From NCBI GenBank assembly GCA_947503765.1, contig CANNFA010000007.1, forward strand, positions 98,614 to 162,613: a stretch of 64,000 nucleotides of DNA, given 5' to 3'. The stretch comes from an uncultured Rhodobacteraceae bacterium. Its GTDB lineage: Bacteria > Pseudomonadota > Alphaproteobacteria > Rhodobacterales > Rhodobacteraceae. A program made the position numbers and the translations under genes. The notes under the pieces are model-generated. The model did no database searches. It was not told the DNA's origin and saw only the letters and a program-made list of their open reading frames with translations. The stretch's first letter is position 1. Each line of letters begins with the position of its first letter. Shown here piece after piece: positions 9,199-39,890 of the stretch.

Positions 9199-10086
9199 AT
9201 GTTCGAGCTATTGGGAATTCCGCCGCAGGTTCTGCTCGGCCAGCTTCTGCTGGGGCTGATCAACGGGTCGTTCTACGCGGTCCTGTCGCTGGGGCTCGCG
9301 GTGATCTTCGGGCTGCTCAACATCATCAACTTCGCACATGGCGCGCTTTACATGATGGGGGCCTTCGTGGCCTGGATGCTGCTGAACTATGTCGGCATCG
9401 GCTACTGGCCCGCGCTGATCCTCGCGCCGCTGATCGTCGGCGCCTTCGGGATCGTGCTGGAGCGCACCATGCTGGCGCGGCTCTATCACCTCGACCACCT
9501 GTACGGGCTGCTGCTGACCTTCGGGCTGGCGCTGATCATCCAGGGGCTGTTCCGCAATTATTACGGCATTTCGGGCCTGCCCTACCGGATCCCCGACATA
9601 TTGTCGGGCGGGCACAACCTGGGCTTCATGTTCATGCCGAATTACCGCGCCTGGGTCGTCGTCGCCTCTGTCATCGTGTGTTTCGGCACCTGGTTCATGA
9701 TCGAGAAGACCCGGCTGGGCGCCTATCTGCGCGCCGCCACCGAAAACCCGGTGCTGGTCGGCGCCTTCGGCATCAACGTGCCGCTGATGATCACCCTGAC
9801 CTACGGCTTCGGCGTGGCGCTGGCCGGGTTCGCGGGGGTGCTGGCCGCGCCGATCTACTCGGTCAACCCGAACATGGGCGCCGACATGATCATCGTGGTC
9901 TTCGCCGTGGTGGTGATCGGCGGCATGGGCTCGATCATGGGCGCGATCCTGACCGGCTACATCCTGGGGCTGGTCGAGGGGCTGACCCGTGTCTTCTACC
10001 CGGAAGGATCGGCGGTGGTGATCTTCGTCATCATGGCGATCGTTCTGCTCATCAAGCCCGAAGGGCTGTTCGGGAGGGCCGCGTGA
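9199..10086 (+). CDS. ABC permease (LivH-like)
   Basis: GLLNIINFAHG motif and a multi-TM hydrophobic pattern. Confidence 0.9.
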   Translation: MFELLGIPPQVLLGQLLLGLINGSFYAVLSLGLAVIFGLLNIINFAHGALYMMGAFVAWMLLNYVGIGYWPALILAPLIVGAFGIVLERTMLARLYHLDHLYGLLLTFGLALIIQGLFRNYYGISGLPYRIPDILSGGHNLGFMFMPNYRAWVVVASVIVCFGTWFMIEKTRLGAYLRAATENPVLVGAFGINVPLMITLTYGFGVALAGFAGVLAAPIYSVNPNMGADMIIVVFAVVVIGGMGSIMGAILTGYILGLVEGLTRVFYPEGSAVVIFVIMAIVLLIKPEGLFGRAA

Positions 10087-11078
10087 TGGCAATGAACGAC
10101 GCCGGCGCGGCCGGCCCGAAAACGGCGGACGACGCGCCCGCGCGGCCGGCCGGGATGCCGATGCTGCACAAGGCGATCTTCGGCATCCTGCTGATCTTCC
10201 TGCTGGCGCTGCCGTTCCTCGTCTATCCGATCTTCGCGATGAAGGTGATGTGCTTCGCGCTGTTCGCCGCCGCGTTCAACCTGCTGCTCGGCTTCGGCGG
10301 GCTGCTGTCCTTCGGGCATGCCGCCTATTTCGGCGGGGCAAGCTATGTCGCCGCCCATGCCGCCAAGGTCTGGGGCCTGACGCCGGAACTGTCGGTGCTG
10401 GCCGGCACCGCCGCCGCCGCGTTCCTGGGGCTGATCATCGGCGCGCTGTCGATCCGCCGGCAGGGCATCTATTTCGCCATGGTCACGCTTGCCTTCGCGC
10501 AGATGGTCTATTTCCTGTCGCTGCAACTGCCCTTCACCGGCGGCGAGGACGGCATCCAGTCGGTGCCGCGCGGCGACCTGTTCGGGCTAATCCCGCTCCA
10601 GGACAACATCTCGCTCTATTTCTTCGTGCTGGCGGTGACCTTCGGCGGCATCCTGTTCCTGTACCGGATCGTGCACTCGCCGTTCGGCCAGGTGCTCAAG
10701 GCGATCCGCGAGAACGAGCCGCGCGCGGTGTCGCTGGGCTACAACGTGAACCGCTACAAGCTTCTGGTCTTCGTGCTGTCGGCGACCTTTGCCGGGCTGG
10801 CCGGGGCGACGAAAAGCCAGGTGTTCCAGCTCGCCTCGCTGACCGATGTGCACTGGTCGATGTCGGGCGAGGTGGTGCTGATGACGCTGCTGGGCGGGAT
10901 GGGCACGATCTTCGGCCCGCTGGTGGGCGCGGCGGCGATCGTGACGATGCAGAACTACCTTGCCACCCTGGGCGCCTGGGTGACGATCATCCAGGGGGTG
11001 ATCTTCGTGATCGGCGTGCTGCTGTTCCGCGAGGGGATCGTGGGCGTCATCTCGCGCTGGCTGAAGCGGCCGCTCTGA
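10086..11078 (+). CDS. ABC permease (LivM-like)
   Basis: LSFGHAAYFG, GIYFAMVTLAFAQ and TGGEDGI. TGATG coupling to livH. Confidence 0.9.
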   Translation: MAMNDAGAAGPKTADDAPARPAGMPMLHKAIFGILLIFLLALPFLVYPIFAMKVMCFALFAAAFNLLLGFGGLLSFGHAAYFGGASYVAAHAAKVWGLTPELSVLAGTAAAAFLGLIIGALSIRRQGIYFAMVTLAFAQMVYFLSLQLPFTGGEDGIQSVPRGDLFGLIPLQDNISLYFFVLAVTFGGILFLYRIVHSPFGQVLKAIRENEPRAVSLGYNVNRYKLLVFVLSATFAGLAGATKSQVFQLASLTDVHWSMSGEVVLMTLLGGMGTIFGPLVGAAAIVTMQNYLATLGAWVTIIQGVIFVIGVLLFREGIVGVISRWLKRPL

Positions 11079-29135: not shown

Positions 29136-29211
29136 GGGCCGTTAGCTCAGTTGGTAGAGCAACTGACTTTTAATCAGTGGGTCGCAGGTTCGAATCCTGC
29201 ACGGCTCACCA
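29136..29211 (+). tRNA. tRNA-Lys (anticodon TTT), with encoded CCA
   Basis: 76-nt cloverleaf. Acceptor stem GGGCCGT/ACGGCTC, anticodon arm ACTGA-CTTTTAA-TCAGT, T-loop GTTCGAATC. Confidence 0.98.
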
Positions 29212-29213
29212 CT
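29161..29213 (+). repeat. att direct repeat, left copy (within tRNA-Lys)
   Basis: AACTGACTTTTAATCAGTGGGTCGCAGGTTCGAATCCTGCACGGCTCACCACT, identical to 63886-63938. Confidence 0.97.
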
Positions 29214-29276
29214 AAATCGCTAAAAAACAAGAGGTTAAGGATAGCGCAAAGCTAAGCCTTTCCCTCCTGTTTTTGT

Positions 29277-29297
29277 TTTGTCACCGGATTTGTCACC
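29277..29297 (+). repeat. Tandem integrase arm-type sites TTTGTCACC x2
   Basis: TTTGTCACC-GGA-TTTGTCACC. Twenty bp are identical to 63729-63748. Confidence 0.75.
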
Positions 29298-29538
29298 AGA
29301 ATTCCCGCAGCACTGTCAGTGCCCGGATTCGCCCGCAAGAAAACAAGAAAACCTGAATCCCGCCTACCGATTCACGCGCAGCCGCATCGTCCGGCATTGG
29401 CACCACGCCTTGCGCGCGTGCGCACGGGGGTTCCGCCCGCTATTGTGCAGGGTCGAACCTAATTTGTTGCGGTTTATAGCAGGTAGGCTTGGGCCGCCGG
29501 TCCCGATATGGGCGCATCAGGCTTTCACCGGCCCCCCG

Positions 29539-29685
29539 TCACTGTCGCCGCGCACCCTGGGCTTCCAGCCGCGCCCGTTCGCGCTGCATCTCGATCAGCA
29601 GCCGGTTGACGTGCTCCTTCGCCGCCTGTGCGGCCTCTGCGGCGCTCTTTCCTTCATCGCGCAGCTCTTTGCATCCATCGCCGGG
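29539..29685 (-). pseudogene. 3' remnant of an unidentified gene, fused back-to-back with the recombinase relic
   Basis: GC3-rich coding-like frame (CKELRDEGKSAAEAAQAAKEHVNRLLIEMQRERARLEAQGARRQ*) that begins abruptly where recombinase homology starts. Confidence 0.4.
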
Positions 29686-30554
29686 CCGAGCGTATTCGCG
29701 ACAAGTTTGCGGCCAGTCGCAAGAAAGGCATGTGGATGGGCGGCGTGCCACCCTACGGCTATCGGGTCGACAACCGTAAGCTGGTCGTTGACGAAGAGGC
29801 CGCCGCGCATGTGCGCTGGATCTTCGCCCGCTTCCTTGAGATCGGATCGGGGACTGAGCTGGCGCGCGAGGTCGCGAAACGCGGGATCCGCACGCCACGC
29901 GGTAACCGGATCGACAAGAAGTACATCTACCGGATGCTGAACAACCGCGCCTACATCGGCGAAGCGGTCCACAAGGGCGAGAGCTATCCCGGAGAGCACG
30001 ACGCCATCATCGACCGCGACACATGGGACCGCGTACACGCCATCCTGCAAGAAAGCCCCCGCAAGCGCGCCGCCCGCACCCGCGCCGATACGCCCGCGCT
30101 GCTGAAAGGGCTGCTCTACGGCCCCGATGGCGCGGCGTTCTCGCCGACCCACACCCGGAAAGGCGGCAAGCTCTACCGCTACTACGTCAGCCAGACCGTG
30201 CTGAAGCACGGCGCCGGGTCTTGCCCGGTCGGCCGGGTGCCCGCCGGCGAGATCGAGGCCGCCGTCATCGACCAGCTTCGCGCCGTGTTCCGCCAGCCGG
30301 AGATCGTCGCAGGGACGTGGAAGGCGGCACGCGCCCACACCGACGACATCTCCGAGGCCGACGCCCGCACCGCCCTGCAGCAGCTCGACCCGCTGTGGGA
30401 CGAACTGTTCCCTGCTGAGCAGGACCGCATCGTGGCGCTGCTGGTCGAGCGCGTGGATATCGGCACTGACGGGCTCAACGTCCGGCTCCGTGTGGACGGG
30501 CTCGGTGCCCTCGCGCGAGAGATGTTGGCTGGAGACATGGGTGCGGCCGCATGA
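29685..30554 (+). pseudogene. Large serine recombinase, 5'-truncated (catalytic domain missing)
   Basis: Homology starts at AERIRDKFAASRKKGMWMGGVPPYGY, followed by recombinase and zinc-ribbon-like regions. There is no N-terminal resolvase domain or catalytic Ser. Confidence 0.8.
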
Positions 30555-30940: not shown

Positions 30941-31030
30941 CTACCTGACTTGGTCCATTTCGCGCAGCTACACCTATTGCTTCGGTGGGCCAAATTGGCC
31001 AAAAGTGTAAGGCCAAGGGCGGGGAGTCAG

Positions 31031-31225
31031 ATGCAGACCCTGAGCGCGAAAGACGCGAAGTACGGCTTCGGACGGCTGATCGATCTCGCCCGAGCTGAAC
31101 CAGTGGCAGTGGCCAAGCATGGGCGGCAAGTCGTCGTAGTGATGGCGATTGAAGAATACGAGCGATTGAAGACGATCGAGGCAGATCGGAATGCCCCCCA
31201 GGCTGCGGATCGCACCAACGAATAG
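31031..31225 (+). CDS. Phd/YefM family antitoxin-like protein, with no adjacent toxin
   Basis: MQTLSAKDAKYGFGRLIDLARAEPVAVAKHGRQVVVVMAIEEYERL, with GGGGAG RBS. Confidence 0.85.
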   Translation: MQTLSAKDAKYGFGRLIDLARAEPVAVAKHGRQVVVVMAIEEYERLKTIEADRNAPQAADRTNE

Positions 31226-31237
31226 AACGAGGGCCAC

Positions 31238-33691
31238 GTGGCAGTCAAAAAGTCGGAAATTTACAGCTCTCTCTGGGCGAGCTGCGATGCGCTTCGGGGC
31301 GGGATGGATGCCTCGCAATACAAGGATTATGTCCTTGTATTGCTCTTCGTGAAGTACGTCTCCGACAAATATTCCGGCGACCCGGATGGGCTGATCGAAA
31401 TCCCCGAAGGCGGCAGTTTTGCGGACATGGTCGCGCTGCGCGGCAATAAGGACATCGGCGAGAAGATCAACATCATCATCGCCAACCTGGCCGAGGCGAA
31501 CGACCTCAAGGGCGTGATCGACGTCGCCGACTTCAACGACCCGGAGAAGCTCGGCACCGGCAAAGAGATGGTTGATCGCCTCTCAAACCTTGTCGCAATC
31601 TTCAATCGCCCGGAGCTGGATTTTCGCAAGAACCGCGCCGATGGCGACGATATTTTGGGCGATGCCTACGAATACCTGATGCGCCATTTCGCCACCGAGT
31701 CGGGCAAGAGCAAGGGGCAGTTTTATACCCCGTCCGAGGTCTCGCGGATCATGGCAAAGGTAATCGGGATAGGTGCCGCGCGCAGCGCCGACCAGACTAT
31801 CTACGACCCCACTTGCGGTTCCGGCTCACTGCTTCTGAAGGCGCATGACGAGGCACCCTACGATCTTACCATCTATGGCCAGGAAAAGGACGTCGCCACC
31901 CGCGCCCTAGCGAAGATGAACATGGTCCTGCACGATTGTCCGACCGCGGAAATCTGGAAGGGCAACACGCTTTCATCCCCACACTTCCTGAACGCGGACG
32001 GCAGCCTAAAGACCTTCGACTACGTGGTCGCCAATCCGCCCTTCTCGGACAAGGCATGGTCGACCGGCGTGTTCGACGAGGGCAAGACCAACCTGACCGC
32101 GCGCTTCACGGTCGAAGGCGAGCGCCCGCCCGAGAAGAACGGCGATTTCGCCTATCTCCTCCACGTGATCGCCTCTCTGAAATCGACGGGCAAGGGCGCC
32201 GTCATTCTGCCCCACGGCGTCCTCTTCCGCGGCAACGCCGAGTCCACGCTGCGCCGCTGGATCATCAAGCGCGGCTACATCAAGGGGATCATCGGCCTGC
32301 CGGCCAACCTGTTCTACGGTACTGGCATTCCTGCCTGTATCGTGGTGCTGGACAAGGAGCTCGCCCAGGCCCGCACTGGCATCTTCATGATCGACGCCTC
32401 CAAGGGATTCGTTAAGGACGGCAACAAGAACCGCCTGCGCAGCCAGGACATCCACAAGATCGTCGACGCCTTCACCAAGCAGGCGCAGATCGACAAATAC
32501 TCGCGGATGGTCCCGCTGGCTGAAATCGAGAAGAACGACTTCAATCTCAACATCCCCCGCTACATCGATGCCTCGGAACCCGAGGACCTGCAGGATATCG
32601 AGGCGCATCTGAGGGGCGGCATCCCGGTGCGGGATGTCGATGCGCTGGATGACTTCTGGCAGGTCGTGCCCGCCGTGCGCCACGACATCTTCGCCCCTGG
32701 CGAACGGCCCGGATACCTGACCCCGATGGTCGAGGTGGCTGAGGTCAAGCCCGCCATCCTGAACCATGCCGAGTTCGCCGCCTATGCCGATACCGTCACC
32801 GCGGTGTTCGACGCCTGGCGCGCGGCGCATATCGACCGGCTGCGGGGTATCGCAATCGGAGACAAGCCGAAGGACTTGATCCACGTGATCTCCGAAGATC
32901 TGCTGGACCGCTTCAAGCCCGTGCCGCTGATCGATGGCTATGACGTGTATCAGCATCTCATGACCTACTGGTCTGAGGTAATGCAGGACGATGTCTATAT
33001 CCTCGTGCAGGATGGCTGGAAGGCCGGGCGTGTGATCCGCGAACTGGTCAGAAACGCCGAGGGCAAGTTCACCGAGACGCCCGACATCACGCTGGGCCGG
33101 CGCAAGCTGAAGGCCGAACTGATCCCGCCCGCGCTGATCGTGGCCCGGTTCTTCGCGGCCGAAAAGGCCGCGTTGGAGGCATTGGAAGCCAAGGCCGAGG
33201 AAGCAGCCCGCGCGATCGAGGAACTGGACGAGGAGCAGGGCGGCGAGGATGGGCTGCTGGCCGATGCCAAGACCGAAAAGGGCAAGCTGACCGCGAAATC
33301 GGTCAAGGACCGGATCAAGGACATTCGCCACGACCGCGATGCGGCTGAGGAGATGGCAATACTCAAGCAGGCGTTGCGGCTGATCGAGGCCGAGGCGGCG
33401 GCGGCCAAGGCGGTGAAGGAGGCGCAGGCAGCGCTGGATGAGGCCACGGTCAGGCACTACGCGAAACTGACCGAGGACCAAGTGAAGGCGCTGATCGTCG
33501 AGGACAAGTGGCTGGCGCGGGTGCAGGGCGATGTGGCGGCCGAGGTTGATCGCGTCAGCCAGGCGCTGGCCGGGCGGGTGAAGTTGCTGACCGAACGCTA
33601 TGCCGCGCCGCTGCCAGAGCTGGAGGATCGCGCGCAGGCGCTGGGCGCAAGGGTGGCCGAGCACCTGAAACGAATGGGGTTCGCCGCGTGA
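31238..33691 (+). CDS. hsdM: Type I R-M methyltransferase subunit
   Basis: LWASCDALRGGMDASQYKDY, GQFYTP, YDPTCGSG, the NPPF (m6A) motif and a long helical C-terminus. Confidence 0.95.
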   Translation: MAVKKSEIYSSLWASCDALRGGMDASQYKDYVLVLLFVKYVSDKYSGDPDGLIEIPEGGSFADMVALRGNKDIGEKINIIIANLAEANDLKGVIDVADFNDPEKLGTGKEMVDRLSNLVAIFNRPELDFRKNRADGDDILGDAYEYLMRHFATESGKSKGQFYTPSEVSRIMAKVIGIGAARSADQTIYDPTCGSGSLLLKAHDEAPYDLTIYGQEKDVATRALAKMNMVLHDCPTAEIWKGNTLSSPHFLNADGSLKTFDYVVANPPFSDKAWSTGVFDEGKTNLTARFTVEGERPPEKNGDFAYLLHVIASLKSTGKGAVILPHGVLFRGNAESTLRRWIIKRGYIKGIIGLPANLFYGTGIPACIVVLDKELAQARTGIFMIDASKGFVKDGNKNRLRSQDIHKIVDAFTKQAQIDKYSRMVPLAEIEKNDFNLNIPRYIDASEPEDLQDIEAHLRGGIPVRDVDALDDFWQVVPAVRHDIFAPGERPGYLTPMVEVAEVKPAILNHAEFAAYADTVTAVFDAWRAAHIDRLRGIAIGDKPKDLIHVISEDLLDRFKPVPLIDGYDVYQHLMTYWSEVMQDDVYILVQDGWKAGRVIRELVRNAEGKFTETPDITLGRRKLKAELIPPALIVARFFAAEKAALEALEAKAEEAARAIEELDEEQGGEDGLLADAKTEKGKLTAKSVKDRIKDIRHDRDAAEEMAILKQALRLIEAEAAAAKAVKEAQAALDEATVRHYAKLTEDQVKALIVEDKWLARVQGDVAAEVDRVSQALAGRVKLLTERYAAPLPELEDRAQALGARVAEHLKRMGFAA

Positions 33692-34941
33692 CGATGCAGG
33701 AGAAGATCAGGCCGGGCTACAGGCAGACCGACGTCGGGGTGATCCCAGAGGATTGGGATGTGGTGCCAATCGGAGGCTTGGGTGAAGTGCGGACGGGGGG
33801 CACTCCGCCCACCAATCGCCGCGAATTGTATGGCGGTGGGTATCTGTTTGTGAGCCCGGCGGATATCGGCGCAAACAAATACATTAATAGGACAGAAAAA
33901 ACGCTATCTCTCGAAGGTTTTCGCAGTTCACGCATTTTCCCGGCCGGCTCTTCGTTATTCGTTTGCATCGGCTCAACCATTGGGAAGGTGGGGTTGGCCG
34001 CGGTCGATCTTTGTTCCAACCAGCAAATTAATTCGGTCTCCCCTGAGGCAAATGTTGACTCTGAGTTTCTCTTTTACTCACTCGTGCATGCATCACCTAG
34101 AATTGCAGCATTGGCTGGCGAGCAGGCAGTCCCAATAATCAATAAGTCTGCATTCAGCGCCAACTTGATAGCGCTACCGGGCAAAGATGAGCAGCGAGCC
34201 ATCGCCGAGGCGCTGTCGGATGCGGATGCGCGAATTTTAACGCTGGAAACGCTGATCGCCAAGAAGCGCGACCTCAAGCAGGCCTCCATGCAACAGCTCC
34301 TCACCGGCAAAACCCGCCTGCCGGGCTTCTCGGGCGACTGGGAAGCGAAGCGGCTGGGGGACTTGGGTTCGACGTACGGTGGGCTGACTGGGAAATCCAA
34401 GGTGGATTTTGGGCATGGCTCTGCAAAATACATCCCCTTTATGAATGTAATGACCAATGTCGTTGTCGACCTCAATAGTTTAGAGAAGGTCGACGTAAGG
34501 CCCGGCGAGAGCCAGAACCAAGCCCGCGCTGGCGACTTATTCTTCAACGGCTCTTCGGAAACGCCTGAAGAGGTTGGGATGTGTGCGTTGTTGGCAGAAA
34601 ATGTCGAGGACCTGTATCTTAACAGCTTCTGTTTTGGTTTCCGGCTTAAGTCGGATGCAGCTGCAAATGGTTTGTTTCTGGCTGGTTACTTCCGCAGTCA
34701 GCAAGGCAGAGATCTGCTTGCGTCGCTCGCACAGGGGGCGACACGCTACAATCTTTCAAAGCGGGCTCTTCTGAAGGTGGAATTCGCTTGTCCGTCTCTG
34801 GATGAACAAGTCGCAATCGCCGAAATCCTCTCAGACATGGATGCAGAAATCGCAGCGCTGGAGGCCGAGGCCGAAAAGGCCCGTGGCATCAAGCAGGGCA
34901 TGATGCAGAACCTGCTGACGGGGAAGGTGCGGCTGGTATGA
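33688..34941 (+). CDS. hsdS: Type I R-M specificity subunit
   Basis: Two low-GC TRDs separated by the conserved EQRAIAEALSD...KQASMQQLLTGK block, repeated at the C-terminus. Confidence 0.93.
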   Translation: MTMQEKIRPGYRQTDVGVIPEDWDVVPIGGLGEVRTGGTPPTNRRELYGGGYLFVSPADIGANKYINRTEKTLSLEGFRSSRIFPAGSSLFVCIGSTIGKVGLAAVDLCSNQQINSVSPEANVDSEFLFYSLVHASPRIAALAGEQAVPIINKSAFSANLIALPGKDEQRAIAEALSDADARILTLETLIAKKRDLKQASMQQLLTGKTRLPGFSGDWEAKRLGDLGSTYGGLTGKSKVDFGHGSAKYIPFMNVMTNVVVDLNSLEKVDVRPGESQNQARAGDLFFNGSSETPEEVGMCALLAENVEDLYLNSFCFGFRLKSDAAANGLFLAGYFRSQQGRDLLASLAQGATRYNLSKRALLKVEFACPSLDEQVAIAEILSDMDAEIAALEAEAEKARGIKQGMMQNLLTGKVRLV

Positions 34942-35351
34942 GCTTCGGCTGGGCCGTCGATGCGCTGGTTGTCTTCGGCGGGCTCTCCGGCTGGGCGGCA
35001 GCCTACTTCTCTTGGTGGGAGTGGCAGAACACGAAGAAGAAGATCGCCATGCTCACCGACGCGGGCGCGGCCGCTGAGGTCCTGCCAGCCTGGTACACAT
35101 CCAGAATGATGACCGATCATTGGACCTTCGGGCTGCTGACAGAGGCCGGAAAGATGGTCGTGATCAAGCGAATTACGGCGCTTTCAGACGATGGGCGATG
35201 GATCGACGTCGAACTTGCGGAGAGCGAAGTGCTCGACTGGTTGCCGAAGGACTATCCGGCTGATTTCGTTTTCGCAGTCGGCCCCGAGAGGACGTCGGCA
35301 TCGCTGCAGATCTCCAAGATCGTTGCCGCGGTCGACCTGATGAATTCGTGA
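34938..35351 (+). CDS. Hypothetical protein with an N-terminal TM helix (137 aa)
   Basis: ATGA overlap with the hsdS stop. Hydrophobic residues ~5-27 followed by a beta-rich soluble region. Confidence 0.75.
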   Translation: MSFGWAVDALVVFGGLSGWAAAYFSWWEWQNTKKKIAMLTDAGAAAEVLPAWYTSRMMTDHWTFGLLTEAGKMVVIKRITALSDDGRWIDVELAESEVLDWLPKDYPADFVFAVGPERTSASLQISKIVAAVDLMNS

Positions 35352-35359
35352 GGCGCTGA

Positions 35360-36100
35360 ATGGTGAGTAGCGACCATCACAAGCGTCTGTTCATCGGCTG
35401 GGATGTCGGCGGCTGGAACTGCGACAAGAACCAGAACAGCCGCGACGCGCTGGTCGTGCTGGATCATACGGGCCAGACCCTCGGCCAGCCCTGGCGAGGC
35501 AATCTGCGCGAGACGATCAACAGCGCGACGACGCCATCGGCCTTCCTCGCCGCGCTCCTTGCGCTGTGCAAGCTGGACAACCCCGCTCGACCCAGCCACG
35601 CCACCCTTGCCATCGACGCCCCGCTCGGCTTCCCCGAGGCCTTCGCCCGCATGATCGCGGGTGGCGCCCCGGTCGATCAGATCGGTCGATCGGCAGCGAA
35701 CCCCTACCTCTTCCGGCACACCGAGCGGCGGCTGGTGGCCGAAGGGGTCACGCCGCTCTCGGCGATCAAGGACATGATCGGCAGCCAGGCGACGAAGGCG
35801 ATGCACGTGGTCGCGCGCTTTGCCCCACAGCGCCTGTCGACCGGCGTCTGGACAGATGGCGCGCATCTGACCGTGATCGAAACCTACCCGGCGCTGTGCC
35901 GCGCCCGCCTCGGGCCGCATGTTCGTACTGAACCGATCCCGAAAACCGGTCGCGAGGCAGATATTCACGACGCCAGTGTCTGCGCCCGCATCGCCCGAGA
36001 CTTCCATTTGAACCGCGAGCGCCTTGAACCCCCGACCGATGAAACACCGCCCTCGGAAGGCTGGATCTGGGCGCCGCGCCGCGTTTTTGTTGAGGCATAG
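35360..36100 (+). CDS. DUF429-like predicted RNase H-fold nuclease
   Basis: FIGWDVGG, LAIDAPLGFP, VIETYP and DASVCA acidic motifs. Confidence 0.75.
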   Translation: MVSSDHHKRLFIGWDVGGWNCDKNQNSRDALVVLDHTGQTLGQPWRGNLRETINSATTPSAFLAALLALCKLDNPARPSHATLAIDAPLGFPEAFARMIAGGAPVDQIGRSAANPYLFRHTERRLVAEGVTPLSAIKDMIGSQATKAMHVVARFAPQRLSTGVWTDGAHLTVIETYPALCRARLGPHVRTEPIPKTGREADIHDASVCARIARDFHLNRERLEPPTDETPPSEGWIWAPRRVFVEA

Positions 36101-36106
36101 TTCACG

Positions 36107-39100
36107 ATGAGCACCGTTGGCCAGATCGAGAGAAGAACTCAGAAGCGCGTCGTCGACCTGTTTCGGAACGCGTTGGGCTATGAGTACCTGGGCAACTGGA
36201 TCGATCGCGCTGACAAGATCGGTCGTCCGAACCGCAACATTGAGGACGAGTATCTGCGTCCCTTCCTGGAAAGGCAGGACTATTCCCCCGAACTGATCAC
36301 CCGCGCGATCCAGCAGCTGACGAAGGTTGCCACCGACCAGTCCCGCAGCTTCTACGACACCAACCGCGTTGTCTATGACCTGCTGCGCTACGGGGTGAAG
36401 GTGAAGGCCGATGTGGGGGATCAGACCCGCACTGTCTGGCTGATCGATTGGGCAAACCCTGCTGCCAATCATTTCGCGATCGCCGAAGAGGTCGCGGTGA
36501 AGCCCGCGGGCGACAAATCCTTCGGCAAGCGCCCGGACGTGGTGATTTATGTCAACGGGATCGCGCTGGGCGTGCTGGAACTGAAACGCTCGACCGTATC
36601 GGTGTCCCAGGGCATCCGGCAGAGCCTCGACAACCAAAAACCGGTATTCATCCAGCCGTTCTTCACCACCATGCAGCTGATCATGGCGGGGAACGACACC
36701 GAGGGGCTGCGCTATGGCGTCATCGAGACACCCGAGAAGTACTGGCTGACGTGGAAAGAGGAAGGCGGGCCGGAAAACCCCCTGGACCGCGCGCTGGTCC
36801 AGATGTGTGCCAAGCCGCGGTTCCTTGAACTGGTCCACGATTTTCTGGTGTTCGACGCCGGCGTGAAGAAGACCTGCCGCCACAACCAGTATTTCGGTGT
36901 GCGCGCAGCGCAGGACCACATCCGCCGACGAGAAGGCGGGATCATCTGGCACACGCAAGGGTCGGGCAAGAGCCTGACGATGGTATGGCTGGCCAAATGG
37001 ATACGCGAGAACGTGCCTGACAGCCGGGTGGTGGTGATCACCGATCGCACCGAGTTGGACGAGCAGATCGAAAAGGTCTTCAACGGGGTCAACGAGGAAA
37101 TCCTGCGCACGAAATCCGGCGCCGATCTGATCGCCCGGCTGAACGACACGAACCCATGGCTGCTGTGCTCGCTGATCCACAAGTTTGGCGGCAAGGAGGA
37201 CAGCGACGCGGATGTCGAAGGTTACGTCGAGGATTTGAAGAGCGCGCTGCCCAAGGACTTTAGCGCCAAGGGCGATATCTTCGTCTTCGTGGACGAATGC
37301 CACCGCACGCAAAGCGGCGATCTGCACAACGCAATGAAGGCGATCCTGCCCAGCGCAATGTTCATCGGTTTCACTGGCACGCCCCTTCTGAAGGCCGACA
37401 AGCAGACGAGCCTCGAAGTGTTCGGCCCATATATCCATACGTACAAGTTTGACGAGGCGGTGTCGGACGGTGTGGTCCTAGATCTGCGCTATGAGGCCCG
37501 AGATATCGACCAGAACATCACGTCGCAGGCGAAGATCGACAAATGGTTCGAGGCCAAGACCAAGGGCCTGACCGATATGGCCAAGGCGCAGCTGAAGAAG
37601 CGCTGGGGTACGTTGCAGAAGGTGCTGTCCAGCCAGTCGCGGCTGGAAAAGATCTTGGCCGATATCCTGATGGACATGGAGACCCGGGACCGGCTTCAAA
37701 GCGGCCGCGGCAACGCCATGCTCGTGTCGTCGAGCATCTATCAAGCGTGCAAGTTCTTTGAGCTGTTCGACAAGACCGATCTGGCGGGCAAGTGCGCGAT
37801 CGTCACCTCCTACAAACCGTCGCCGAACGACATAAAGGGCGAGGAAAGCGGCGAGGGGCTGACGGAACGCCTGCGACAATACGATATCTACAACAAGATG
37901 CTGGGGGGCAAGGAGCCCGAGGCATTCGAGAAGGAGGCGAAGCGGAAGTTCATCGATGAGCCAGGGCAGATGAAACTGCTGATCGTCGTGGACAAGCTGC
38001 TGACCGGCTTTGACGCCCCCTCGGCCACGTATCTCTACATCGACAAGAAGATGCAGGACCACGGCCTGTTCCAGGCGATCTGCCGGGTGAACCGGCTGGA
38101 CGGGGACGACAAGGAATACGGCTACATCATCGACTACAAGGACCTGTTTAAGAGCCTTGAGACCTCGATCAAGGACTACACGGCCGAGGTTTTCGATGGT
38201 TATGACAAGGCGGATGTAGCGGGCCTGCTTTCGGATCGGCTTGAAAAGGCGCGCGAGAGGCTGGACGAGGCATTGGAAGCTGTCCGGGCTCTCTGTGAAC
38301 CGGTCGAGCTGCCCCGCGATACCCTCGCCTACCAGCGCTTCTTCTGTGCAAAGGACACGGCCGACAAGGAGGCGCTGAAGGAGAATGAGCCGAAGCGGCT
38401 AACCCTCTATCGGCTGGTGGCCTCGTTGTTGCGCGCCTACGCCGATGTGGCAAACGAGATGAGCGAGGCCGGCTACTCCGAGGCCGAGGTCGCCAGTATC
38501 AAAGCGGATGTCGATCACTTCGAGAAGGTGCGGAATGAGGTGAAGCTGTCGAGCGGTGACTATATCGATCTGAAGATGTACGAGCCGGCGATGCGGCACC
38601 TGATCGACACCTATATCCGCGCCGAAGAAAGCGAAGTGATCTCGGCCTTTGACGATGTTTCGCTGATCCAGCTTATCGTTGAGAGGGGGGTGGATGCGGT
38701 CAACGCCTTGCCCCAGGGCATTCGTCAGAGCAAAGAAGCCGTGGCGGAGACGATCGAGAACAACGTCCGGAAGCTGATCATCGACGAGACGCCGATTAAT
38801 CCGAAGTACTATGAGAAGATGTCCGAACTGCTGGACGCCCTAATCGAGCAGCGCAAGCGCGAGGCGCTGAGTTATCAGGAGTATCTCGCTCAGATAGTCG
38901 AGCTCACGAAAAAGGCCCAAGGCACCGAAACGGCCGCCTCGTATCCAGCCGCGCTGAATTCGAAGGCGAAGCGCGCGCTTTTCGACAATCTCGATGGGGA
39001 CGAGGCCCTGGCTTTGGCGATCGACGAAGAAATTCGCCTCACCAAGAAGGACTCCTGGCGCGGCAACAGGTTCAAGGAGAAGGAGGTGCGCAACGCAATC

Positions 39101-39172
39101 AAGAAGCACATCTTTGACCCCGGTCAACTCGATGCGATCTTTGAACTGGTGTGGAACCAGGATGAGTACTGA
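36107..39172 (+). CDS. hsdR: Type I R-M restriction subunit
   Basis: RPD...GVLELK nuclease motif, HTQGSGKS, DECHR, GFTGTP, KLLTGFDAP and QAICRVNR. Confidence 0.96.
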   Translation: MSTVGQIERRTQKRVVDLFRNALGYEYLGNWIDRADKIGRPNRNIEDEYLRPFLERQDYSPELITRAIQQLTKVATDQSRSFYDTNRVVYDLLRYGVKVKADVGDQTRTVWLIDWANPAANHFAIAEEVAVKPAGDKSFGKRPDVVIYVNGIALGVLELKRSTVSVSQGIRQSLDNQKPVFIQPFFTTMQLIMAGNDTEGLRYGVIETPEKYWLTWKEEGGPENPLDRALVQMCAKPRFLELVHDFLVFDAGVKKTCRHNQYFGVRAAQDHIRRREGGIIWHTQGSGKSLTMVWLAKWIRENVPDSRVVVITDRTELDEQIEKVFNGVNEEILRTKSGADLIARLNDTNPWLLCSLIHKFGGKEDSDADVEGYVEDLKSALPKDFSAKGDIFVFVDECHRTQSGDLHNAMKAILPSAMFIGFTGTPLLKADKQTSLEVFGPYIHTYKFDEAVSDGVVLDLRYEARDIDQNITSQAKIDKWFEAKTKGLTDMAKAQLKKRWGTLQKVLSSQSRLEKILADILMDMETRDRLQSGRGNAMLVSSSIYQACKFFELFDKTDLAGKCAIVTSYKPSPNDIKGEESGEGLTERLRQYDIYNKMLGGKEPEAFEKEAKRKFIDEPGQMKLLIVVDKLLTGFDAPSATYLYIDKKMQDHGLFQAICRVNRLDGDDKEYGYIIDYKDLFKSLETSIKDYTAEVFDGYDKADVAGLLSDRLEKARERLDEALEAVRALCEPVELPRDTLAYQRFFCAKDTADKEALKENEPKRLTLYRLVASLLRAYADVANEMSEAGYSEAEVASIKADVDHFEKVRNEVKLSSGDYIDLKMYEPAMRHLIDTYIRAEESEVISAFDDVSLIQLIVERGVDAVNALPQGIRQSKEAVAETIENNVRKLIIDETPINPKYYEKMSELLDALIEQRKREALSYQEYLAQIVELTKKAQGTETAASYPAALNSKAKRALFDNLDGDEALALAIDEEIRLTKKDSWRGNRFKEKEVRNAIKKHIFDPGQLDAIFELVWNQDEY

Positions 39173-39890
39173 TGCCGCCCAGCTGTCCGTTGGAGGCTTC
39201 GAGGTAGAGGTGGTTCGCAAGCCGATCAAGAACTTGCACCTCGGTGTCTACCCGCCTCATGGACGTGTCCGCGTTGCAGCGCCGCTAGAGATGGGTGACG
39301 AGGCCGTACGGCTCGCTGTTGTCACCCGCCTTGCCTGGATCAAGCGCCAGCAGGCCAAGTTCGCGGCGCAGCCGCGCCAGTCCGAGCGACGCTATGTATC
39401 AGGGGAAACCCACTTCTTCCTGGGCCAACGGTATCGACTGAACCTGATCGAGGGGGCCAGGGCGGGGCAGGTTCGGGTTCGCAACAGAAAGACAATCGAT
39501 CTTCATGTGCGCAATGACAGCGATCTGGCCATTCGAGAACGGGTGTTCATCGATTGGTACCGGCGAGAGCTTCGTGCGCGAGCGAGACCCCTAATGGAGC
39601 ACTGGGCGGCGGAATACGGTATCGCAACGCCGAATTGGGGCATCAAGCGGATGAAGACCAAATGGGGCACCTGCAATATCGAAGCACGTCGAGTCTGGTT
39701 GAACCTCGAACTGATCAAGAAGCCGCCGCAGTGTCTTGAATACGTGATCGTCCATGAGCTGGCGCACTTCTTTGAGCGCAACCACACAGAGCAGTTCGTG
39801 GCCCTTCTGGACCGGATGCTTCCGCATTGGCGGATCGTTCGTGACGAGCTCAACGCCGAGCCCCTGGCGCATGATGATTGGAGCACATAG
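39162..39890 (+). CDS. M48/YgjP-type zinc metallopeptidase-like protein
   Basis: KPIKNLHLGVYPPHGRVRVAAP, KWGTC and EYVIVHELAH (HExxH). Overlaps the hsdR stop. Confidence 0.85.
   Translation: MSTDAAQLSVGGFEVEVVRKPIKNLHLGVYPPHGRVRVAAPLEMGDEAVRLAVVTRLAWIKRQQAKFAAQPRQSERRYVSGETHFFLGQRYRLNLIEGARAGQVRVRNRKTIDLHVRNDSDLAIRERVFIDWYRRELRARARPLMEHWAAEYGIATPNWGIKRMKTKWGTCNIEARRVWLNLELIKKPPQCLEYVIVHELAHFFERNHTEQFVALLDRMLPHWRIVRDELNAEPLAHDDWST

What the first reader, a model, noticed from the sequence alone, without database searches (positions are those of the whole stretch)
34938..36100. Membrane protein + DUF429-like nuclease pair embedded between hsdS and hsdR
Seen: a 137-aa TM protein overlaps the hsdS stop (ATGA), the RNase H-like ORF follows 8 bp later, and hsdR starts 6 bp after that, so both are integral to the R-M operon. 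Established: this slot hosts back-up defence effectors such as the anticodon nuclease PrrC, which fires when the R-M complex is inhibited. Inference: this is a candidate undescribed two-gene guard or abortive-infection module coupled to type I R-M.
Basis: partly seen in the sequence, partly recalled or inferred. Interest (0 to 1): 0.75.

Follow-up and report, generated by a model that had tools for sequence, protein, structure and literature searches.

The report
Two independent passengers in restriction operon
Both small genes between the specificity and restriction genes of this type I restriction-modification operon are real, but they are independent passengers: one is an already catalogued, untested candidate defence nuclease (PADLOC PDC-S44), and the other is a rare, unannotated, probably membrane-anchored protein tied to the specificity gene.

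Summary
The layout is exactly as described: hsdS and ORF137 overlap in ATGA, ORF246 starts 8 bp after ORF137, and hsdR starts 6 bp after ORF246.

**ORF246**
- It matches the PADLOC candidate PDC-S44 (E 1e-98). This is one of 145 untested candidates that Payne et al. 2024 derived from genes embedded in BREX, DISARM and type I R-M systems.
- It is a DUF429-type RuvC/RNase H-like protein. D15, D86, E174 and D201/D204 are invariant.
- At least 29 of 80 related loci hold it in the same hsdS–hsdR slot, beside varied cargo (AbiE, SoFic, PDC-S02 and others).
- It has switched between embedded and non-embedded sites at least 7 times.

**ORF137**
- It has no match in Pfam, PADLOC or NCBIfam.
- The model (pLDDT 93) shows an N-terminal membrane-type helix followed by an Sm-like barrel.
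- Relatives of the barrel lie in phage early regions.
- Its start overlaps the hsdS stop in 8 of 10 contexts. Four of those have PDC-S44 and four do not.

**Are they a pair?** Of the 80 PDC-S44 loci, 78 lack ORF137, including one whose ORF246 is 89% identical. The only other lineage with the pair carries PDC-S44 from a different clade (AU p 6e-10). A dedicated two-gene module is therefore not supported. A defence role for either gene is plausible but untested.

The parts
29136..29211 (+). tRNA-Lys(UUU); left edge of the lower-GC island that carries the operon
   Evidence: ARAGORN. GC falls from 0.68-0.71 upstream to 0.55-0.61 over most of the operon (up to 0.67 at the hsdM 3' end and in ORF246). 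A recombinase fragment follows at 29628-30554, with Recombinase and Zn_ribbon_recom matches only.
30950..31225 (+). Phd/YefM-type antitoxin-like gene heading the operon, with no toxin partner (likely true start is the ATG near 31031)
   Evidence: Pfam PhdYeFM_antitox, E 1.8e-11. Conserved upstream of hsdM in L002 at 91% identity.
31238..33691 (+). hsdM, 817 aa, type I methyltransferase
   Evidence: Pfam N6_Mtase E 5e-101 and HsdM_N; PADLOC MTase_I.
33688..34941 (+). hsdS, 417 aa, specificity subunit
   Evidence: Pfam Methylase_S, two stretches; PADLOC Specificity_I. Its target-recognition domains are replaced in a ~94% identical relative.
34938..35351 (+). ORF137: small protein with an N-terminal membrane-type helix (residues ~4-32) and an Sm-like beta-barrel domain (residues ~40-137); translationally coupled to hsdS
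   Evidence: ATGA overlap. No Pfam, PADLOC or NCBIfam match. 21 close homologues; 323 cluster representatives for the C-terminal domain. AF2 pLDDT 93. Foldseek best hits are Sm/LSm proteins, E 0.14-0.5. Hydropathy and charge bias.
35360..36100 (+). ORF246: PDC-S44 family, DUF429-type RuvC/RNase H-like predicted nuclease
   Evidence: PADLOC PDLC05021 PDC-S44, E 9.7e-99, residues 7-241 on profile 4-249 of 257. Pfam DUF429 E 5.5e-4; 21 of 40 relatives match. Invariant D15, D86, E122, K146, H149, E174, D201, D204 and EGW233-235.
36107..39172 (+). hsdR, 1021 aa, restriction subunit
   Evidence: Pfam HSDR_N, SWI2_SNF2 and T1R_D3-like; PADLOC REase_I.
39162..39890 (+). YgjP-like (M48/SprT-like) metallopeptidase; overlaps the hsdR stop by 11 nt and is conserved after hsdR across this R-M family
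   Evidence: Pfam YgjP-like E 2e-59. ATG at 39162. Present after hsdR in most related loci.

Best explanation
The operon is a type I R-M system of the hsdM-hsdS-[cargo]-hsdR-YgjP peptidase family, on a tRNA-Lys island. The gap between hsdS and hsdR is a recurrent cargo slot, and here it holds two unrelated passengers. (1) ORF246 belongs to PDC-S44. It is a DUF429-type RuvC/RNase H-like protein whose invariant acidic residues (D15, D86, E174, D201/D204) predict a metal-dependent nuclease. Inferred: it is expressed from the R-M operon as an extra, largely autonomous anti-phage layer. It probably cuts phage nucleic acid or replication intermediates such as RNA:DNA hybrids or branched DNA, by analogy with the RNase HII-type activity reported for the one characterised DUF429 domain. 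(2) ORF137 is a rare protein with an N-terminal membrane-type helix and a probably cytoplasmic Sm-like barrel. Its gene is tied to the 3' end of hsdS, not to the nuclease. Inferred: it is an accessory of this R-M clade, either a membrane tether or regulator, or a small independent cargo. Its soluble domain is shared with proteins from phage early regions.
For: - Layout and family matches.
- PDC-S44 match at E 9.7e-99. PDCs are defined as untested candidates found embedded in BREX, DISARM or type I R-M systems.
- 29 of 80 loci hold PDC-S44 between hsdS and hsdR of the same R-M family. At least 16 of them show a 4-bp overlap between hsdS and PDC-S44.
- The slot also holds AbiEi/Eii, SoFic, PDC-S02, HEC-05-like, Schlafen-type and REase-ARP genes.
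- Embedded and non-embedded PDC-S44 interleave on the tree, with 7-11 switches.
- The catalytic-type residues are invariant. DUF429 is placed in the RuvC-like clade D of the RNase H-like superfamily, and a DUF429 domain has RNase HII-type activity.
- ORF137 follows hsdS in 8 of 10 contexts, four without PDC-S44. It is absent from L003.
- The ORF137 model is confident. Its relatives lie in phage-like loci with ERF, endolysin and a primase zinc-finger fusion.
- Metatranscriptome contigs of a ~94% identical relative run unbroken from hsdS through both ORFs into hsdR.
Against: - No functional data exist for PDC-S44 or ORF137, and the only literature mention of PDC-S44 is a survey listing.
- Part of the PDC-S44 family sits in conserved non-defence neighbourhoods: MscS-like/HicB/YebC, M28 peptidase, arginase.
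- ORF137 and PDC-S44 were juxtaposed at least twice independently, which could hint at a functional affinity.
- The ORF246 fold was not modelled here.
- The ORF137 Sm-like hits have E-values above 0.1, and its hydrophobic segment is borderline for a transmembrane helix.
- The metatranscriptome contigs may include DNA carry-over.
Confidence: 0.72

Rival explanations
1. One reading: ORF137 and ORF246 form one two-gene guard or abortive-infection module. The membrane protein senses or executes, and the nuclease is its partner. The module fires when the R-M complex is inhibited.
For: The two genes are adjacent with tight spacing. The pair recurs in L001, L002 and, at about 50% identity, in L081. 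The juxtaposition arose twice independently.
Against: 78 of 80 PDC-S44 loci lack ORF137, including L003 with 89% identity. Four ORF137 lineages in R-M operons lack PDC-S44. In at least 16 loci PDC-S44 is itself coupled directly to hsdS.
Confidence: 0.12
2. PDC-S44 alone is a PrrC-like guard. The Hsd complex keeps it latent, and phage anti-restriction proteins release it.
For: It occupies the same slot as PrrC. It is often translationally coupled to hsdS. About 37% of sampled loci are embedded in one R-M family.
Against: 49 of 80 loci are not embedded, and there are 7-11 switches on the tree. It lacks an ABC ATPase or anticodon-nuclease domain. PrrC is almost exclusively embedded.
Confidence: 0.15
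3. PDC-S44 is not a defence gene. It is either a housekeeping RNase H/R-loop or junction-processing nuclease, or a selfish cassette that hitch-hikes in the recombination-prone slot at the hsdS 3' end.
For: Some clades have conserved non-defence neighbourhoods. The characterised DUF429 domain is an RNase HII-type enzyme. Majorek et al. noted conserved genomic contexts for DUF429.
Against: It is repeatedly placed beside type I and type IV restriction systems, Tiamat, AbiE and Kiwa. It is patchy: found only in the window's own genome among 301 genomes of the same family. No flanking repeats were found here.
Confidence: 0.15
4. ORF137 is a domesticated phage or mobile-element protein that modulates restriction (for example restriction alleviation or self-protection) rather than an effector.
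For: Its soluble domain has standalone relatives in phage early regions and beside Toprim and orphan-methylase genes. It is coupled to hsdS.
Against: Purely contextual evidence. tblastn of ORF137 and of one standalone relative found no match in the deposited-phage collection. No match to a known anti-restriction family in Pfam or PHROGs.
Confidence: 0.1

Closest known systems
PADLOC phage defence candidate PDC-S44 (Payne et al. 2024, bioRxiv 10.1101/2024.01.29.577857)
   Same: ORF246 matches the model end to end (E 9.7e-99). It is a single gene embedded in a type I R-M operon, which is the criterion that defined the PDC candidates.
   Different: None for ORF246. PDC-S44 is untested, and the model set does not include ORF137.
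DUF429 (PF04250), RuvC-like clade D of the RNase H-like superfamily; the characterised member is the N-terminal domain of M. smegmatis MSMEG_5849 (RNase HII-type activity)
   Same: Family-level Pfam match and invariant acidic residues at the predicted first and fourth strands.
   Different: The window protein is below the Pfam cut-off (20.2 vs 23 bits). There is no RelA/SpoT or Nudix fusion. The context is a defence operon. The substrate is unknown.
PrrC anticodon nuclease in the EcoprrI (hsdM-hsdS-prrC-hsdR) locus
   Same: Same slot between hsdS and hsdR, and the same idea of a second defence layer.
   Different: No ABC ATPase or anticodon-nuclease domain. PDC-S44 is frequently found outside R-M operons. 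No evidence of latency or of activation by an anti-restriction factor.
Sm/LSm small beta-barrel fold
   Same: The ORF137 model has a helix plus a bent five-stranded sheet. The best Foldseek hits are Gemin6/7 and Lsm proteins (probability up to 0.96).
   Different: E-values are 0.14 or worse. There is no sequence match to any Pfam or PDB entry. An N-terminal membrane-type helix is attached.

Membership tests
PADLOC PDC-S44 | Full-length match to the PDC-S44 HMM | tested here: met
   E 9.7e-99, 328 bits, residues 7-241 on profile positions 4-249 of 257.
PADLOC PDC-S44 | Found embedded in a BREX, DISARM or type I R-M system | tested here: met
   Sits between hsdS and hsdR. 29 of 80 related loci are likewise embedded. 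Definition taken.
PADLOC PDC-S44 | Anti-phage activity | not testable with these tools
   The PDCs are stated to be untested. No experimental paper mentions PDC-S44.
Pfam DUF429 / RNase H-like clade D | Score at or above the Pfam gathering threshold | tested here: inconclusive
   The window protein scores 20.2 bits against a cut-off of 23. 21 of 40 family members match at E <= 0.01, best 2.2e-7.
Pfam DUF429 / RNase H-like clade D | Conserved acidic residues on the first and fourth strands, plus a C-terminal helix | tested here: met
   D15, D86, E174, D201 and D204 are invariant in 40 sequences. The strand assignment is inferred because no model of ORF246 was made.
PrrC-type R-M guard | ABC ATPase domain plus anticodon-nuclease domain | tested here: not met
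   No such Pfam or PADLOC match for either ORF.
PrrC-type R-M guard | Near-exclusive embedding in type I R-M | tested here: not met
   PDC-S44: 49 of 80 loci are not embedded, with at least 7 switches. ORF137: 8 of 10 contexts follow hsdS.
PrrC-type R-M guard | Latency imposed by the Hsd proteins and activation by an anti-restriction factor | not testable with these tools
   Requires experiments.
Obligate two-gene module | The partners co-occur across the family | tested here: not met
   2 of 80 PDC-S44 loci carry ORF137. 4 of 10 ORF137 contexts carry PDC-S44. The two pair lineages are not a clade (AU p 5.7e-10).
Single-pass membrane protein (ORF137) | A hydrophobic helix of about 20 residues with positive-inside flanks | tested here: inconclusive
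   Model helix at residues 4-32. Kyte-Doolittle 19-residue mean is 1.43, below the usual 1.6; family range 1.4-2.5. No K/R before the segment and 3-5 after it.
Sm/LSm fold (ORF137 C-terminal domain) | Significant structural match | tested here: inconclusive
   Top hits are Sm/LSm proteins with probability up to 0.96 and target-normalised TM 0.55-0.65, but none has E <= 0.001.

The most novel reading that the evidence does not exclude
ORF137 is a dedicated fourth component of a small clade of type I R-M systems. In this reading it is a membrane-anchored Sm-like protein, derived from a phage early-region domain and translationally coupled to HsdS. It would either tether or gate the restriction complex at the membrane where phage DNA enters, or act as a decoy sensor for a phage replication protein.
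Probability: 0.15. Interest if true: 0.7.

Novelty: new variant of a known kind. Interest (0 to 1): 0.36.

Why it matters
Type I R-M operons act as carriers for extra immune genes, and this operon is another clear example. For ORF246 the result is a tidy assignment to an existing but untested candidate. It also supplies a set of invariant residues to mutate, and evidence that the gene moves freely in and out of R-M operons, which argues for an autonomous function. ORF137 is the less expected part. It is an unannotated family whose gene is welded to the end of hsdS and whose soluble domain is otherwise found in phage early regions. If it proves to be an R-M accessory, it would bear on how type I enzymes are localised or controlled. 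The family is rare, so the impact would be modest unless the wider domain family turns out to have a common role.

Tried and rejected
- A single-sequence AF2 run of ORF137 was useless (pLDDT 36). It succeeded only with a 65-sequence alignment.
- Profile searches of the PDB sequences found nothing for ORF137 and only a chance hit for ORF246.
- tblastn of ORF137 and of a standalone relative against deposited phage genomes found no match.
- I tested whether ORF137 is related to the MscS beta-domain protein that precedes PDC-S44 in Halomonadaceae. hhalign gave a probability of 0.4%, so this was rejected.
Only short chance-level repeats were found.
- The promoter and terminator scan showed nothing beyond shuffled expectation inside the operon.
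- Estimating the base rate of PDC-S44 in this R-M family within the same taxonomic family gave too few systems to be useful: 6 other genomes, none with cargo.
Full report
**1. Observation**

The ORF table and the sequence show one co-directional gene string:
- a Phd/YefM-like gene, 30950-31225
- hsdM, 31238-33691
- hsdS, 33688-34941
- ORF137, 34938-35351
- ORF246, 35360-36100
- hsdR, 36107-39172
- a YgjP-like metallopeptidase, 39162-39890

The ORF137 ATG overlaps the hsdS TGA in ATGA. ORF246 starts 8 bp after the ORF137 stop, and hsdR starts 6 bp after the ORF246 stop. Pfam and PADLOC confirm the Hsd subunits and the peptidase.

The operon lies just downstream of tRNA-Lys (29136-29211) and a recombinase fragment. 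Most of it has GC of about 0.55-0.61, against 0.68-0.71 upstream, so it sits on an island. The pattern scan found no promoter or terminator excess inside the operon.

**2. ORF246**

ORF246 matches PADLOC model PDLC05021, PDC-S44, at E 9.7e-99 over nearly the full length. Its Pfam DUF429 match is weak (20.2 bits against a cut-off of 23). However, 21 of 40 aligned relatives match DUF429, and several homologues are annotated by JGI as 'predicted nuclease with RNAse H fold'.

Majorek et al. 2014 place DUF429 in the RuvC-like clade D of the RNase H-like superfamily, with conserved putative active-site residues in the first and fourth strands. The one characterised DUF429 domain is in M. smegmatis MSMEG_5849 and is reported to have RNase HII-type activity.

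In a 40-sequence alignment (45-91% identity to the window protein) these residues are invariant:
- D15 (IGWD), D86 (IDAP), E174 (IETYP), D201 and D204
- E122, K146, H149 and the EGW motif at 233-235

No relative has a solved structure detectable by sequence.

Payne et al. 2024 explain what a PDC is. It is one of 145 untested candidates derived by 'guilt-by-embedding' from genes nested in BREX, DISARM or type I R-M systems. The same paper notes that PrrC is almost exclusively embedded in type I R-M. The only paper that mentions PDC-S44 is an environmental survey. ORF246 is thus catalogued but functionally unknown.

**3. Neighbourhoods of PDC-S44**

A scan of species-representative genomes returned 80 loci. 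I mapped the window's proteins onto them and called genes.

- 29 loci have PDC-S44 between hsdS and hsdR of the same hsdM-hsdS-...-hsdR-YgjP family. Two more are partial.
- This is a lower bound, because many contigs are short.
- In at least 16 loci the PDC-S44 start overlaps the hsdS stop by 4 bp. That is the position ORF137 occupies here.

The slot is a cargo hot spot. Alongside PDC-S44 it holds:
- PDC-S02 (a NucS_C-like protein and a DUF1016/YhcG protein)
- AbiEi/AbiEii
- SoFic
- a Schlafen AlbA_2/HATPase_c_4 protein
- a HEC-05-like protein
- a REase-ARP PD-(D/E)XK nuclease

Outside R-M operons the contexts are mixed:
- Defence-type: next to Tiamat TmtA, GmrSD, and a McrB-like ATPase with an HNH-HIT protein.
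- Conserved non-defence: MscS-like/HicB/YebC in Halomonadaceae, M28 peptidase/pentapeptide in Nitrosomonas relatives, and arginase.

On a maximum-likelihood tree of 81 proteins, embedded and non-embedded members interleave. The minimum is 9-11 state changes, and 7 are forced by well-supported branches. The window's own clade contains four embedded members (window, L001-L003) and eight non-embedded alphaproteobacterial members.

PDC-S44 was found in only the window's genome among 301 genomes of the same taxonomic family. It is therefore a patchy, mobile accessory gene that does not need a type I R-M system around it. This weakens a strict PrrC-type dependence but does not exclude one.

**4. ORF137**

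ORF137 has no Pfam, PADLOC or NCBIfam match. Only 21 close homologues turned up among 5.8 billion proteins. It was found in 1 of 401 genomes of the class, the window's own. The family is nevertheless well conserved, with 27 invariant columns at 44-95% identity.

A profile search of 1.84 billion cluster representatives found 323 relatives.
- Most are standalone proteins of 100-125 aa that correspond to residues ~40-137 and lack the N-terminal hydrophobic segment.
- A few are fused to a DnaG-type CHC2 zinc finger or to a DnaB N-terminal domain.
- One such fusion sits in a 36-kb phage-like contig with ERF recombinase, DUF3310 and an endolysin.
- Other relatives lie in strings of small unannotated ORFs, or beside Toprim and DUF4942-methylase genes.

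With the 65-sequence alignment, AF2 gave a confident model (pLDDT 93, pTM 0.75). It has a long helix at residues 4-32 followed by two short helices and a bent beta-sheet. Foldseek's best PDB hits are Sm/LSm proteins such as Gemin6/7 and Lsm1-7, with probability up to 0.96, but the E-values are 0.14-0.5 and none is significant. In the viral library the best hits are uncharacterised phage proteins.

The N-terminal segment is moderately hydrophobic. The 19-residue Kyte-Doolittle mean is 1.43 here and 1.4-2.5 across the family. There are no K/R residues before it and 3-5 just after it. This fits an N-out, C-in anchor but does not prove one.

**5. Are the two genes a pair?**

I examined ten distinct contexts of ORF137 homologues.

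| Context | Loci |
|---|---|
| After hsdS, followed by PDC-S44 | window, L001, L002, L081 |
| After hsdS, hsdR directly downstream | L084/L085, the 8.6-kb JGI contig with L091, L092 (frameshifted copy) |
| After hsdS, followed by a Fic gene | L089/L090 |
| No R-M genes nearby | L086, L088 |

In eight of the ten contexts ORF137 directly follows hsdS, and its start overlaps the hsdS stop. Four of these eight have PDC-S44 next, and four do not.

Conversely, 78 of 80 PDC-S44 loci lack ORF137. One of them is L003, whose hsdR is 98% and ORF246 89% identical to the window's, and where hsdS abuts PDC-S44 directly.

The L081 pair is not a diverged copy of the window's pair. Its PDC-S44 belongs to another clade (64% identity to L016, 49% to the window). 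Forcing the pair-bearing sequences into one clade is rejected (AU p 5.7e-10).

So ORF137 tracks hsdS and the R-M backbone, while PDC-S44 comes and goes. The two independent juxtapositions are worth noting, but they are what one expects if both genes favour the same slot. I could not estimate a useful base rate: only six other genomes of the taxonomic family carry this HsdR type, and none has cargo.

**6. Expression**

Four metatranscriptomic libraries from biofloc and aquatic samples contain contigs of up to 9.1 kb carrying a relative about 94% identical to the window. The contigs in three of them (7.7-9.1 kb) run without a break from the hsdS 3' end through ORF137 and ORF246 into hsdR; in the fourth the stretch is covered by shorter overlapping pieces. 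The two hsdS target-recognition domains are replaced in this relative. This is compatible with co-transcription and shows specificity swapping around a fixed cargo. Such contigs can include DNA carry-over, so the evidence is weak.

**7. Interpretation**

Best reading (confidence about 0.72): the slot holds two independent passengers.
- ORF246 is a PDC-S44 member. It is a predicted metal-dependent RuvC/RNase H-like nuclease that most likely serves as an autonomous add-on defence gene expressed from the R-M operon. Its substrate and trigger are unknown, and both the nuclease activity and the defence role are inferred.
- ORF137 is a rare, hsdS-coupled, probably membrane-anchored Sm-like protein. 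It is most likely an accessory of this R-M clade or a small separate cargo. Its mechanism is inferred only from anatomy and context.

Rivals:
- a PrrC-like guard role for PDC-S44 alone (0.15)
- a non-defence or selfish role for PDC-S44 (0.15)
- a restriction-modulating role for ORF137 (0.10)

**8. Novelty**

The embedding phenomenon and the PDC-S44 family are already described, though the family is untested. Two earlier follow-up notes in this scan reached the same conclusion for other genomes. I reached mine before reading them, and I did not find the flanking hsdS-tail repeat that one of them proposed.

The new element is the ORF137 family: its coupling to hsdS, its confident Sm-like model, and its relatives in phage early regions. 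Overall this is a new variant of a known kind, of moderate interest.

Noticed in passing
window 30950-31225: An orphan Phd/YefM-type antitoxin-like gene ends 12 bp before hsdM, with no toxin gene beside it. It is conserved (91%) in the same position in L002. Other loci of this R-M family have different small regulators or TA genes there: an HTH protein in L084 and TacA/TacT in L092. It may be an operon regulator.
   Followed up: partly
window 29136-30554: tRNA-Lys is followed by a large-serine-recombinase fragment that has Recombinase and Zn_ribbon_recom domains but no N-terminal resolvase domain. This is probably the decayed integration module of the island.
   Followed up: no
window 39162-39890 and most related loci: A YgjP-like/SprT-like metallopeptidase gene overlaps the hsdR stop by about 10 nt in nearly every member of this R-M family. 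It looks like a constant, uncharacterised fifth gene of the system.
   Followed up: partly
window 33757-34197 and 34359-34887 (hsdS): In a ~94% identical relative seen in metatranscriptome contigs, both hsdS target-recognition domains are replaced by unrelated sequence of similar length. The conserved N-terminal, central and C-terminal hsdS segments and the cargo are kept.
   Followed up: partly
L092 5840-6246: The ORF137 homologue in an otherwise intact hsdM-hsdS-hsdR-YgjP operon carries a 1-nt frameshift near codon 55. This is either a pseudogene or a long-read assembly error.
   Followed up: no
L004 7929-8717: A 22-codon remnant of the hsdM 5' end (91% identical) lies directly upstream of a non-embedded PDC-S44 gene. 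A GmrSD-type gene follows a little further downstream (9254-10678). This suggests a decayed or rearranged R-M operon.
   Followed up: no
L101 4244-4867; proteins P0175 and P0187: The unannotated ~95-aa Sm-like domain of ORF137 is fused to a DnaG-type CHC2 zinc finger (P0175, inside a phage-like contig) and to a DnaB N-terminal domain (P0187; its context was not examined). In both cases the catalytic domains are absent. These are candidate replisome-binding phage proteins.
   Followed up: partly
L081 5240-8522: In this operon the hsdS-hsdR slot holds ORF137, PDC-S44, a KwaA-like gene with a 295-aa partner, and a GmrSD gene in a row. That makes five cargo genes in one slot.
   Followed up: no
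L070 7156-7983 and L080 7354-7983: In Halomonadaceae a gene for an MscS-like channel overlaps the start of the PDC-S44 homologue. It is unrelated to ORF137 (hhalign probability 0.4%). It is nonetheless another membrane protein with an Sm-like beta domain immediately upstream of this nuclease.
   Followed up: partly
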